From Thalia democratica (taxonomy: Eukaryota): a stretch of DNA of 64,000 nt. Below are positions 21,001 through 24,000 of the stretch, one piece after another; positions within the stretch are counted from its first letter, which is position 1; the number at the start of each line of letters is the position of its first letter. The DNA lies in contig OZ241828.1 in assembly GCA_965202585.1 (NCBI GenBank), forward strand, positions 45,446,001 through 45,510,000, given 5' to 3'. The position numbers were made by a program.

Positions 21001-24000
21001 GCTTAAAAACTACCTGGGAAAAACAAATAATAATTGGCTTCTATTAACAAGTGTTTTGAATTGTGACTATGTGTGATTTATGGTACACAATAGTGTTTGT
21101 TGAATAATCATTGCAGTTCAACTTTGCTTATTAAGTGTATGTTTTTGATTTAATACAAATATAAAATAAAACAAAGTTTTAGCTAAAAATCCTCCAGAGA
21201 AAACGATATTTTGTAATAAAGAGCTAATTAAAAAAATCTAGAAAAGTTGTCTCTTTATGCTTTATAAAAGTTTTTTAAATAAAATGCATATAAAGAAACT
21301 TTAATTGTTAGATTTATAAAAACGTAAGGAATGCACAGACTATTCATAATAAATTATCTCGCTCAAGAACTTTTTATAGAAAACCGCACCCACAAAAAGA
21401 AAACTTATCCATTTTTATAACAATAAAAAACTTATCTAGTTAGTTTATTAAAAAACTAAATACTTTAATAATAAAAATTACAAAAAAAATCTCTCTTTCC
21501 AATATCTTTTTAAAGTTTTTAATATACATTAAACCGTAATAATTCTAGGTTCAGTAATTGTCGGAAAGACTAACGTAGACGGAAAAGCATACAGTGATAC
21601 TAAATCCTTGTTGGATGATGCTGTTTACTATGGAAAATCTGAAAATACACTTTGGCCAGAAATTGTCAAAAATTTAAAAACGGATGTTGCAGCTAAATAT
21701 AACGACGATGGAATTACATACAGTTTGAATAATCTTCATGGGAATACAAATAAATTGCTTGAATCTGTATTATCATCTAAGTCAGTATTAGATGCAAGTT
21801 CTAATACAAATGCCAATTCAAATAAAGAAATATATGGTAGCTTTACCGGGGACGACTTTTATAAACAAATAAAACAAAACAGTAAAATTGTTACTGTCGG
21901 AGGTGCCGATGTTAACGGTAAGGCCTACGCTGACGGTGAAACCGGATACGGCAAGGGCATGTACTACGGTCAACCATCCGGAATGATGTGGCCAGGAATG
22001 GACGGAAAGATCCACTCTGACGCTGACGTCAACGCTCTCACCGACGGAACCAAGATCATCTTCGGTGATGACAGCGACAAGGACGGCGAATACCCATACG
22101 GTACATTCAAGGCAACTGGTGACGCTAAGGCTGCTTCAGACGCCGAAGCCTACGCTCCATTCGATGTCCACGGTGACTTCAAGGGAGGAGATAACTACGG
22201 CAAGGACGGCAAGCAAGGTATGATTGTTGTCGGAGGTGCCGATGTTGACGGTAAGGCCTACGCTGACGGTGAAACCGGATACGGCAAGGGCATGTACTAC
22301 GGTCAACCATCCGGAATGATGTGGCCAGGAATGGACGGAAAGATCCACTCTGACGCTGACGTCAATGCTCTCACCGACGGAACCGAGATCATCTTCGGTG
22401 ATGACAGCGACAAGGACGGCGAATACCCATACGGTACATTCAAGGCAACTGGTGACGCTAAGGCTGCTTCAGACGCCGAAGCCTACGCTCCATTCGATGT
22501 CCACGGTGACTTCAAGGGAGGAGACTACTACGGCAAGGACGGCAAGCAAGGTATGATTGTTGTCGGAGGTGCCGATGTTGACGGTAAGGCCTACGCTGAC
22601 GGTGAAACCGGATACGGCAAGGGCATGTACTACGGTCAACCATCCGGAATGATGTGGCCAGGAATGGACGGAAAGATCCACTCTGACGCTGACGTCAACG
22701 CTCTCACCGACGGAACCAAGATCATCTTCGGTGATGACAGCGACAAGGACGGCTCATACCCATACGGTACATTCAAGGCAACTGGTGACGCTAAGGCTGC
22801 TTCAGACGCCGAAGCCTACGCTCCATTCGATGTCCACGGTGACTTTAAGGGAGGAGATAACTACGGCAAGGACGGCAAGCAAGGTATGATTGTTGTCGGA
22901 GGTGCCGATGTTGACGGTAAGGCCTACGCTGACGGTGAAACCGGATACGGCAAGGGCATGTACTACGGTCAACCATCCGGAATGATGTGGCCAGGAATGG
23001 ACGGAAAGATCCACTCTGACGCTGACGTCAACGCTCTCACCGACGGAACCAAGATCATCTTCGGTGATGACAGCGACAAGGACGGCTCATACCCATACGG
23101 TACATTCAAGGCAACTGGTGACGCTAAGGCTGCTTCAGACGCCGTAGCCTACGCTCCATTCGATGTCCACGGTGACTTCAAGGGAGGAGATAACTACGGC
23201 AAGGACGGCAAGCAAGGTATGATTGTTGTCGGAGGTGCCGATGTTGACGGTAAGGCCTACGCTGACGGTGAAACCGGATACGGCAAGGGCATGTACTACG
23301 GTCAACCATCCGGAATGATGTGGCCAGGAATGGACGGAAAGATCCACTCTGACGCTGACGTCAACGCTCTCACCGACGGAACCAAGATCATCTTCGGTGA
23401 TGACAGCGACAAGGACGGCTCATACCCATACGGTACATTCAAGGCAACTGGTGACGCTAAGGCTGCTTCAGACGCCGAAGCCTACGCTCCATTCGATGTC
23501 CACGGTGACTTCAAGGGAGGAGATAACTACGGCAAGGACGGCAAGCAAGGTATGATTGTTGTCGGAGGTGCCGATGTTGACGGTAAGGCCTACGCTGACG
23601 GTGAAACCGGATACGGCAAGGGCATGTACTACGGTCAACCATCCGGAATGATGTGGCCAGGAATGGACGGAAAGATCCACTCTGACGCTGACGTCAACGC
23701 TCTCACCGACGGAACCAAGATCATCTTCGGTGATGACAGCGACAAGGACGGCTCATACCCATACGGTACATTCAAGGCAACTGGTGACGCTAAGGCTGCT
23801 TCAGACGCCGAAGCCTACGCTCCATTCGATGTCCACGGTGACTTCAAGGGAGGAGATAACTACGGCAAGGACGGCAAGCAAGGTATGATTGTTGTCGGAG
23901 GTGCCGATGTTGACGGTAAGGCCTACGCTGACGGTGAAACCGGATACGGCAAGGGCATGTACTACGGTCAACCATCCGGAATGATGTGGCCAGGAATGGA

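What the first reader, a model, noticed from the sequence alone, without database searches (positions are those of the whole stretch)
21549..21894. One fossil-like unit escaped homogenisation and exposes the conserved core of the domain
Seen: the unit next to the acceptor is heavily diverged and uses A/T-ending codons (Lys mostly AAA, Asn mostly AAT). It still keeps frame, near-identical length (112 vs 111 codons) and the motifs V-G, VDGKAY-x-D, YYG, WP, DG and G-x-F-x-G-x-D-(F/Y)-Y. The DDSDKDG loop is not kept. Inference: purifying selection on aromatic and turn residues suggests each unit is a folded, probably beta-rich domain rather than a disordered spacer. The copy may act as a hinge or a distinct-function linker between two arrays. 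It is the best unique probe for the gene.
Basis: partly seen in the sequence, partly recalled or inferred. Interest (0 to 1): 0.65.

Follow-up and report, generated by a model that had tools for sequence, protein, structure and literature searches.

The report
Diverged edge repeat in giant mucin-like gene
The flagged segment is a real, coding, strongly diverged copy of a 111-residue repeat at the start of a huge exon of a giant mucin-like gene; it is an ordinary repeat at the edge of an array that escaped homogenisation, though the repeat module itself is undescribed.

Summary
The window has two huge open exons made of 333-bp (111-codon) units: 54 full units in 1..18283 and 126 in 21887..64000. 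A 22.5% GC intron (18284..21548) separates them. The first 112 codons of exon 2 (21551..21886) are a unique, diverged copy. It is 24-25% identical to the canonical unit without gaps (BLASTP E=3e-12; z=10.9 against shuffles). AAA makes up 11 of 13 Lys codons and AAT 10 of 13 Asn codons.

Third codon positions sit at chance identity and at intron GC (0.232 vs 0.225). First and second positions are far above chance, so the protein sequence is under selection. A homologue fragment continues into a MUC2/VWF-type cysteine-rich C-terminus, so the gene looks like a gel-forming-mucin-type polymer whose centre is not Pro/Thr/Ser-rich.

The best reading is an edge unit locked out of concerted evolution. 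The "folded beta domain" inference is unproven: both AlphaFold runs were low-confidence (pLDDT 35.6 and 29.3, shallow alignments), and Pfam, PDB and the Atlas gave no fold. The "hinge" idea could not be tested. Interest is modest.

The parts
1..18283 (+). Exon 1 (open at the window's 5' end): array of 333-bp units, 54 full units plus a 101-residue partial unit, 'type 1' consensus
   Evidence: 6094 codons without a stop. Units are 105-111/111 identical to the array consensus. TRF reports period 333.
18284..21548 (+). Intron, 3265 nt, 22.5% GC, phase 1. The donor is caag|GTATGT. The acceptor is ttctag| at 21548, with gttcag| at 21554 as an alternative.
   Evidence: Sequence. The split codon G|GT restores the Gly that ends every canonical unit. 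AAGGTATGT occurs once, at 18281, whereas AAGGTATGA occurs 178 times in the units. There are no unit remnants by tblastn or blastn. The longest stop-free stretch in 6 frames is 70 codons. No Rfam match. No RNA data, so the exact acceptor is inferred.
21549..21550 (+). Last two bases (GT) of the split Gly codon
   Evidence: phase check.
21551..21886 (+). The diverged ('fossil-like') unit, 112 codons, GC 0.312, GC3 0.232, net charge -1
   Evidence: 118 stop-free codons from 21533. Only 1 of 20000 nucleotide shuffles is stop-free.
21560..21598 (+). Kept N-terminal motif V-G ... V-D-G-K-A-Y-x-D (residues 4-16)
   Evidence: Alignment A1. Residues 1-36 are 14/36 identical to the consensus.
21626..21658 (+). 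Kept Y-Y-G (26-28) and W-P (35-36)
   Evidence: W-P is also kept in the distant homologues P0011 and P0013.
21659..21793 (+). Middle of the unit (residues 37-81) at chance identity to canonical (3/45). It holds G-I-T-Y-S-L-N-N, shared with a unit of homologue P0003, and NNLHGNT in place of the canonical DDSDKDG loop.
21836..21862 (+). Kept C-terminal motif G-x-F-x-G-x-D-F-Y (residues 96-104)
   Evidence: Residues 82-104 are 8/23 identical.
21887..22219 (+). First homogenised unit of exon 2, 7 nt from the array consensus. The boundary with the diverged unit lies within 21887..21896.
21887..64000 (+). Exon 2 array (open at the window's 3' end): 126 full 'type 2' units plus a partial one
   Evidence: 14150 codons without a stop from 21551. 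Units are 106-111/111 identical to the consensus. The consensus differs from exon 1's at 13 nt and 5 residues.

Best explanation
The segment is translated sequence. It is the first repeat unit of the second giant exon of a very large secreted-polymer gene. That gene has at least about 20,200 codons in this window and is open at both ends. The gene is of the gel-forming-mucin/VWF type, but its centre is made of about 180 copies of an undescribed 111-residue Gly/Asp/Lys/Tyr-rich module instead of a Pro/Thr/Ser-rich region.

Shown: the unit is a homologue of that module and has stayed outside the concerted evolution that keeps the other units 95-100% alike.

Inferred mechanism:
1. The unit abuts unique intron DNA. 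Unequal exchange and conversion tracts therefore lack homology on one side.
2. Once it had diverged, mismatches blocked further recombination, a ratchet that explains the sharp, stable boundary at 21887.
3. As a single copy, its synonymous sites carry almost none of the translational load of the gene. They drifted to the AT-rich background composition.
4. Any stop or frameshift would truncate more than 14,000 downstream codons, so the frame is held.
5. Protein-level selection kept two blocks, residues 1-36 and 82-104, which hold the strand-like hydrophobic and aromatic motifs. The middle, including the canonical Dx[DN]xDG-type loop, was free to change.
For: Coding status:
- 118 stop-free codons against at most 70 in the intron in 6 frames. 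Only 1 of 20000 shuffles is stop-free.
- The phase-1 donor and acceptor restore the Gly codon.

Homology:
- BLASTP E=3e-12, no gaps; z=10.9.

Escape from homogenisation:
- 144/333 nt identical, against 0-7 differences per unit in 126 exon-2 units.
- The boundary lies within 10 nt.
- The two arrays have their own consensus, differing at 13 nt and 5 residues, so the intron is a barrier to homogenisation.

Drift at silent sites:
- GC3 is 0.232 against intron GC 0.225 and canonical GC3 0.595.
- Two-fold codons ending in C or G: 39/43 in one consensus unit against 12/46 in the diverged unit, p=3.8e-10.
- Position-3 identity is at chance (470/5000 shuffles reach it), while positions 1 and 2 are far above chance (1/5000 and 0/5000).

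Edge effect elsewhere in the family:
- The first unit after the Cys-rich N-terminal piece in P0003 and P0005 is diverged up to IIFGDDSDKDG. The last unit in P0006 and P0007 breaks off mid-unit.
- The principle is in print. PMC3495898 (passages read) states that non-identity of terminal repeats is expected, because unequal crossing over at an array's terminus is inhibited by dissimilar flanks.

Gene type:
- Homologue P0007 has 2.5 canonical units and then Cys-rich domains. These match the MUC2 C-terminus (7qcu, E=1.4e-20), the VWF cystine knot (4nt5, E=8e-11) and MUC2 D4 (7qcn, E=3e-5).
- Pfam finds VWC at E=4e-11.
- The Atlas neighbours are otogelin, mucin-2 and mucin-5B clusters, scores 0.95-0.90.
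Against: - Edge position alone is not enough. The unit on the other side of the intron, the last of exon 1, is only 5 nt from its consensus.
- The diverged unit shares G-[IV]-T-Y-S-L-[ND]-N with a unit of homologue P0003. Identity there is 22/61 = 36%, higher than to its own canonical neighbours. That hints at an old, conserved unit type with its own role.
- The exact length is retained through a middle region with no sequence similarity. Plain drift does not explain this.
- The idea of a 'core of a fold' is not backed by any confident model.
- Aromatic enrichment among kept residues is not significant, p=0.07.
- The mucin-type ends are seen only on homologue fragments, not in this window.
- No transcript evidence for the splice was available.
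Confidence: 0.7

Rival explanations
1. This is a specialised unit. The diverged copy would be an old, separately conserved unit type with its own job between the two arrays, for example a hinge, a packing or cross-linking site, or a non-calcium-binding spacer. Selection, not just position, would keep it distinct from the canonical units.
For: - It shares G-[IV]-T-Y-S-L-[ND]-N with the last unit of P0003 from a related source. The canonical unit has T-K-I-I-F-G-D at that place.
- The exact length is kept.
- Net charge is -1 against -9 for the canonical unit, and the Dx[DN]xDG match is lost.
- Protein-level constraint is shown.
- The donor-side terminal unit did not diverge.
Against: - The shared motif is only 6 identities in 14 residues, in a single fragment.
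- A search with the diverged unit alone found no protein of 61-196 residues.
- Its composition moved wholesale towards residues with AT-rich codons: N 2 to 13, S 5 to 14, L 1 to 10, G 22 to 7. That looks like relaxed constraint.
- The helices in the model have pLDDT below 40.
Confidence: 0.22
2. The segment is not translated. It would be intron or pseudo-exon, with the true acceptor further downstream. Alternatively, the window holds two separate genes or a misassembly.
For: - No RNA evidence was available.
- Several other phase-compatible AG sites lie inside the segment, at 21578, 21587, 21659, 21692, 21785, 21791 and 21827.
- Exon 1's frame runs on to a TAG at 18316-18318, so a read-through end is formally possible.
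Against: - A 118-codon open frame in 31% GC DNA is reached by 1 of 20000 shuffles.
- The in-frame conserved motifs start at codon 4.
- Positions 1 and 2 are conserved while position 3 is not.
- There is no ATG in frame before the first canonical unit.
- The window has no N.
- The donor GTATGT is unique among 179 AAGGTATG sites.
Confidence: 0.05

Closest known systems
Terminal repeats of tandem-repeat genes under concerted evolution (e.g. mmr-b of Brachionus, PMC3495898, passages read)
   Same: Internal units are near-identical. The unit next to unique flanking DNA is not homogenised, because exchange at the array's end is inhibited by dissimilar flanks.
   Different: The divergence here is extreme: 57% of nucleotides differ and silent sites are saturated. 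The flank is an intron inside the gene. Only the acceptor-side unit diverged, not the donor-side one.
Gel-forming mucins / VWF family (MUC2, MUC5AC/B, otogelin; architecture as described in PMC4948705, passages read)
   Same: A giant central repeat exon. The homologue fragment P0007 has VWC domains, a MUC2-D4-like region and a C-terminal cystine knot.
   Different: The central repeat is not a PTS domain. T+S is 9.0% and P 3.6%, against the paper's thresholds of at least 40% and more than 5%. The units are 111 residues long and rich in aromatics, Gly and Asp. The N-terminal VWD assemblies were not seen, and the ends lie outside this window.
Spidroin-type intragenic homogenisation (PMC3933166; search listing and abstract only)
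   Same: Long, nearly identical coding repeats inside one gene, flanked by non-repetitive parts.
   Different: There is no sequence relation. The spidroin-like hit P0012 from the profile search is not homologous: BLASTP E is 4.7 or higher, and the match is a repeated 17-residue stretch.
Dx[DN]xDG calcium-binding loops (PMC3123361; listing and abstract only)
   Same: Each canonical unit has one exact match, DSDKDG at residues 62-67.
   Different: It is only a pattern match in a D/G-rich sequence. It is absent from the diverged unit and from the distant homologues P0011 and P0013. Binding is untested.

Membership tests
Tandem array under concerted evolution with an unhomogenised edge unit | Internal units are near-identical within an array | tested here: met
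   0-7 nt differences per 333 nt in 126 exon-2 units and 0-12 in 54 exon-1 units.
Tandem array under concerted evolution with an unhomogenised edge unit | The unit adjoining unique flanking DNA is more diverged than internal units | tested here: met
   On the acceptor side, 189 of 333 nt differ. On the donor side this is not met: 5 nt differ.
Tandem array under concerted evolution with an unhomogenised edge unit | Arrays separated by unique DNA are homogenised independently | tested here: met
   The consensus units differ at 13 nt and 5 residues. Exon-1 units 50-53 are closer to the exon-2 consensus, so some exchange may occur.
Gel-forming mucin / VWF family | C-terminal cystine-knot domain | tested here: inconclusive
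   Present in homologue fragment P0007 (VWF CTCK 4nt5, E=8e-11; MUC2 7qcu, E=1.4e-20). The window does not reach the gene's 3' end.
Gel-forming mucin / VWF family | VWD-C8-TIL assemblies | tested here: inconclusive
   P0007 residues 719-1106 match MUC2 D4 (7qcn, E=3.2e-5). Atlas neighbours carry VWD/C8. Pfam reported only VWC for P0007, even at E up to 10. The N-terminal assemblies were not seen.
Gel-forming mucin / VWF family | Central PTS domain (T+S at least 40%, P above 5%, per PMC4948705) | tested here: not met
   Canonical unit: T+S 9.0%, P 3.6%. Diverged unit: T+S 19.6%, P 0.9%.
Any curated protein domain family (Pfam-A) | A match above the family's gathering score with a domain-level stretch | tested here: not met
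   For the diverged unit the best hit is E=0.39. A 6-unit stretch reaches 30.1 bits for CBM-like_2 (cut-off 27), but only by summing a 20-residue match per unit. No single stretch passes, and 20 of 126 profile positions are covered.
Dx[DN]xDG calcium-binding loop | Linear motif present | tested here: met
   DSDKDG is present once per canonical unit and absent from the diverged unit.
Dx[DN]xDG calcium-binding loop | Loop geometry and calcium binding | not testable with these tools
   No confident model was obtained.

The most novel reading that the evidence does not exclude
The 111-residue unit would be an undescribed folded extracellular module that has replaced the glycosylated PTS region in a mucin/VWF-type polymer. 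Each chain would carry about 180 or more acidic, Dx[DN]xDG-bearing beads, which could condense with calcium in secretory granules. The diverged unit would then be an anciently conserved, near-neutral, non-calcium-binding interruption that selection keeps distinct. It could act as a hinge or a processing or cross-linking point between two independently homogenised arrays. Its position at a phase-1 intron would reflect an older one-unit-per-exon gene.
Probability: 0.15. Interest if true: 0.6.

Novelty: new member of a known kind. Interest (0 to 1): 0.35.

Why it matters
The diverged unit is a natural experiment. It shows which 25-28 of the 111 positions of an otherwise invariant, uncharacterised repeat tolerate no change. 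It is also the only unique sequence inside more than 60 kb of near-identical repeats, which makes it useful as an anchor for assembly checks, PCR, probes and expression assays.

The contrast between the codon-optimised homogenised units and the single copy that drifted to background composition illustrates how selection on silent sites can act on an array as a whole.

The gene itself may interest people who study mucus, adhesives or other secreted polymers of marine animals. It pairs a mucin/VWF-type scaffold with a non-PTS, aromatic/Gly/Asp-rich centre and has no Pfam, PDB or Atlas relative. None of this overturns current understanding.

Tried and rejected
1. Recalled lead: the 333-bp repeat of the Trichomonas P270 antigen (from memory). 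Rejected because the window has a 3.3-kb spliceosomal-type intron and the homologue has a metazoan mucin-type C-terminus. The literature search found 2 papers, listings only, and neither was read.
2. Pfam, PDB and Atlas on the units gave no family.
   - The CBM-like_2 and Peptidase_M4 hits are 20-30-residue matches summed over copies.
   - The PDB profile search with A3 had a best E of 0.14, to endo-polygalacturonase (a beta-helix). That is not significant and is kept only as a lead.
3. AlphaFold2 was run twice and both models were low-confidence. Fold search was therefore not run, because the tool text says such models give meaningless matches.
4. The charge-hydropathy plot is borderline on both sides and uninformative.
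5. Profile search of 1.84 billion representatives with A1 gave 10 proteins at E<=0.001.
   - P0014 (TPR protein) was judged spurious by eye.
   - P0012 (spidroin-like) was judged spurious by BLASTP.
   - P0011 and P0013 were accepted as distant homologues.
6. The diverged unit alone against 5.8 billion proteins of 61-196 residues found nothing.
7. Unit remnants in the intron: none. RNA families in the intron: none.
8. NG86 dN/dS gave dN 0.88 and dS 4.5. It is not used as a ratio, because dS is saturated and codon bias differs.
9. Literature search for four peptide motifs of the unit found 0 papers. Searches for 333 bp / 111 amino acid repeats and for mucin terms found nothing that describes this gene (listings only, apart from PMC4948705).
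Source names and accessions of the homologues stayed unknown.
11. The organism was not identified. The homologues come from sources printed as 'merc', 'ena' or '-'.
No DNA of homologues could be fetched, so no cross-species dN/dS was possible.
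Full report
**What is in the window**

The window is almost entirely one 333-bp tandem repeat (TRF: period 333, 191.4 copies, 91% matches). GC is 0.54-0.56 everywhere except 18001-22000, where it falls to 0.26. Two open frames on the + strand fill the window:
- 1..18318, open at the 5' end.
- A frame running from 21533 to the window's 3' end.

Neither frame has a stop over 6094 and 14150 codons, and the window has no N.

The first frame leaves the repeat at caag|GTATGT (donor GT at 18284-85). 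This is after the first base of the Gly codon that ends every unit. The second frame is entered at ttctag|GT (exon start 21549) or at gttcag|TA (21555). Both are phase 1, and the first restores GGT = Gly. AAGGTATGT occurs once in the window, at the donor. The units carry AAGGTATGA 178 times.

The 3265-nt stretch between the exons has these properties:
- GC is 22.5%.
- The longest stop-free run in six frames is 70 codons.
- There is no remnant of the unit by tblastn or blastn.
- There is no Rfam match.

I read it as a spliceosomal intron. This is inferred from the sequence, because no RNA data were available. Everything below used single-exon sequence.

**Checking the observation**

The first 112 codons of exon 2 (21551..21886) are a diverged copy of the 111-codon unit.
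- BLASTP against the next unit gives 27/113 identities, no gaps, E=3e-12.
- A global alignment to the exon-2 consensus gives 28 identities, z=10.9 against 2000 residue shuffles.
- The canonical DDSDKDG is NNLHGNT here.
- Lys is AAA in 11 of 13 codons and Asn is AAT in 10 of 13. In the 126 canonical units the counts are AAA 9 / AAG 1247 and AAT 4 / AAC 253.
- No other unit is diverged. The minimum is 106/111 among 126 exon-2 units and 105/111 among 54 exon-1 units.

**Is the segment coding and constrained?**

The 118 stop-free codons from 21533 to 21886 compare with at most 70 in the intron. Only 1 of 20000 nucleotide shuffles of the segment is stop-free.

Identity to the consensus by codon position:

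| Codon position | Identical of 111 | Codon-shuffle mean | Shuffles reaching observed (of 5000) |
|---|---|---|---|
| 1 | 51 | 33.3 | 1 |
| 2 | 61 | 31.4 | 0 |
| 3 | 32 | 26.0 | 470 |

Silent sites are therefore saturated while the protein is still recognisable. That is the signature of selection on the protein.

GC3 of the segment (0.232) equals intron GC (0.225). The canonical GC3 is 0.595. Counting a single consensus unit, to avoid pseudo-replication, two-fold codons end in C or G 39 times of 43, against 12 of 46 in the diverged unit (p=3.8e-10).

Conservation is uneven:
- Residues 1-36: 14/36 identical.
- Residues 37-81: 3/45, which is chance level.
- Residues 82-104: 8/23.

The composition moved towards residues with AT-rich codons: N 2 to 13, S 5 to 14, L 1 to 10, G 22 to 7. 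Aromatic residues are kept at 6 of 13 positions against 19 of 98 for the rest. That is suggestive only (Fisher p=0.07).

**The edge of homogenisation**

Identity to the periodic consensus in 20-nt windows is 1-8 of 20 up to 21877-21896. It is 16 of 20 at 21887-21906 and 19-20 of 20 from 21897 on. The first two canonical units differ from the consensus by 7 and 6 nt, and later ones by 0-7.

The two arrays have their own consensus, differing at 13 nt and at five residues: H14Y, E68S, A94V, Y103N and G107D. They are therefore homogenised separately.

The last unit of exon 1 is only 5 nt from its consensus. Edge position by itself does not produce the extreme divergence. A long-standing exclusion, kept up by sequence divergence itself, is my inference.

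The general principle is stated in PMC3495898 (passages read). Non-identity of terminal repeats is expected under concerted evolution, because unequal crossing over at the array terminus is inhibited by dissimilar flanks.

**What gene this is**

The unit has no Pfam family, no relative among solved structures (profile search best E=0.14) and no usable Atlas hit.

Protein searches returned few relatives:
- Five proteins of 185-590 residues.
- One protein of 591-2000 residues.
- None for the diverged unit alone.

P0007 (1725 aa) starts with 2.5 canonical units and continues into Cys-rich domains. These match:
- the MUC2 C-terminal part (7qcu, E=1.4e-20);
- the VWF cystine knot (4nt5, E=8e-11);
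- MUC2 D4 (7qcn, E=3.2e-5);
- Pfam VWC (E=4e-11);
- Atlas clusters named otogelin, mucin-2 and mucin-5B, scores 0.95-0.90.

P0003 and P0005 show a Cys-rich piece followed by a half-diverged first unit.

By the criteria quoted in PMC4948705 (passages read), a PTS domain has T+S of at least 40% and P above 5%. The unit here has 9.0% and 3.6%. The gene therefore works like a mucin/VWF-type polymer scaffold but fails the PTS criterion. Its own ends lie outside the window.

The profile search of 1.84 billion representatives with A1 found 10 proteins at E<=0.001.
- P0011 is a true distant homologue: 46% identity over 83 residues to the canonical unit, E=2e-21. I accept P0013 as one from its alignment in A3 (37% identity to the canonical row).
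- P0012 (spidroin-like) is not a homologue: BLASTP E is 4.7 or higher.
- P0014 (TPR protein) is spurious, judged by eye.

These distant repeats keep I-x-F, DG-SYP and APFD, which the diverged unit has lost. The window's own diverged unit is thus further from the canonical unit (24%) than a repeat from another lineage (46%).

**Folded or not**

Both AlphaFold2 jobs were low-confidence:
- Diverged unit plus two canonical units, single sequence: mean pLDDT 35.6, no residue above 70.
- Two canonical units with the 7-row alignment A3: mean pLDDT 29.3, all residues below 50.

Both models draw strands in the canonical units. The first draws helices in the diverged unit. At these confidences that carries no weight, so I did not run fold search. 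The charge-hydropathy plot is borderline.

Some features argue indirectly for a fold:
- 11.7% aromatic residues in the canonical unit.
- An invariant W-P.
- Strand-like I-V-V, I-I-F and T-F-K-A segments kept across lineages.
- Gapless alignment between lineages.

They do not prove it. I treat it as uninformative because the alignments were so shallow.

**A hint that the diverged unit type is old**

The last unit of P0003 is canonical up to residue 46 and then reads ...NNGVTYSLDNFDND. The window's diverged unit has ...DDGITYSLNNLHGN in the same register, and the canonical unit has ...TDGTKIIFGDDSDK. Identity to the window's diverged unit is 22/61 (36%). This is one short stretch in one fragment. 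It keeps the specialised-unit rival alive at about 0.2.

**Verdict**

The segment is a real, translated, protein-constrained but otherwise relaxed edge unit of a giant repeat array. The phenomenon is known. The repeat module and the non-PTS mucin-type gene are undescribed, as far as these searches show: and literature listings.

Left unchecked:
- transcripts;
- homologue DNA (collections closed);
- the organism.

Noticed in passing
window 1636..5964 and 5965..10293: Two consecutive 13-unit blocks of exon 1 are identical at 4326 of 4329 nt. A one-unit shift gives 4261 of 4329. This is either a very recent 4.3-kb higher-order duplication or an assembly artefact.
   Followed up: partly
window about 16954..18285 (exon-1 units 50-53): These units near the donor are as close or closer to the exon-2 consensus (4-10 nt) than to their own (7-9 nt). 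Most exon-1 units are 11-18 nt from the exon-2 consensus. This suggests some exchange between the arrays across the intron, or an old gradient.
   Followed up: no
window, every unit (e.g. 299, 632 ... 63840): Each canonical unit carries AAG|GTATGA, a near-consensus donor-like site, 178 times in all. The site actually read as donor is the only AAG|GTATGT (18281). The gene must avoid about 178 cryptic donors.
   Followed up: partly
protein P0005 (C-terminal 9 residues) and window 18284..18318: P0005 ends ...GKGGKQG-MFVTYYVVN. The window's exon-1 frame ends ...GKGGKQG-MSIHFYSFNF*. Both look like read-through into an AT-rich intron at the same unit position. A second intron at the same place and phase may exist after the first partial unit of the homologue.
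   Followed up: no
window 15538..15855, 15871..16188, 16204..16521, 17869..18186 (- strand): There are antisense open frames of 105 codons inside a few exon-1 units. They are most likely a by-product of the periodic, stop-poor sequence.
   Followed up: no
window 20481..20790 (intron): Local direct repeats are spaced 121-126 nt apart (families D2 and D4, 70-81% identity), so the intron contains a short degenerate tandem duplication. Nothing else was recognised.
   Followed up: no
canonical unit residues about 43-63 (e.g. window 22013..22075): HSDADVNALTDGTKIIFGDD aligns weakly with a coil of the parallel beta-helix of endo-polygalacturonases (7e56, E=0.14; not significant). This is a lead for a solenoid-like fold only.
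   Followed up: partly
protein P0004: This fragment leaves the canonical unit after ...MMWP and continues into unrelated sequence with a hydrophobic stretch (FIQAVVSIFIILKLIFA). It could be a mispredicted join or a different gene carrying the repeat. No Pfam family was found.
   Followed up: no
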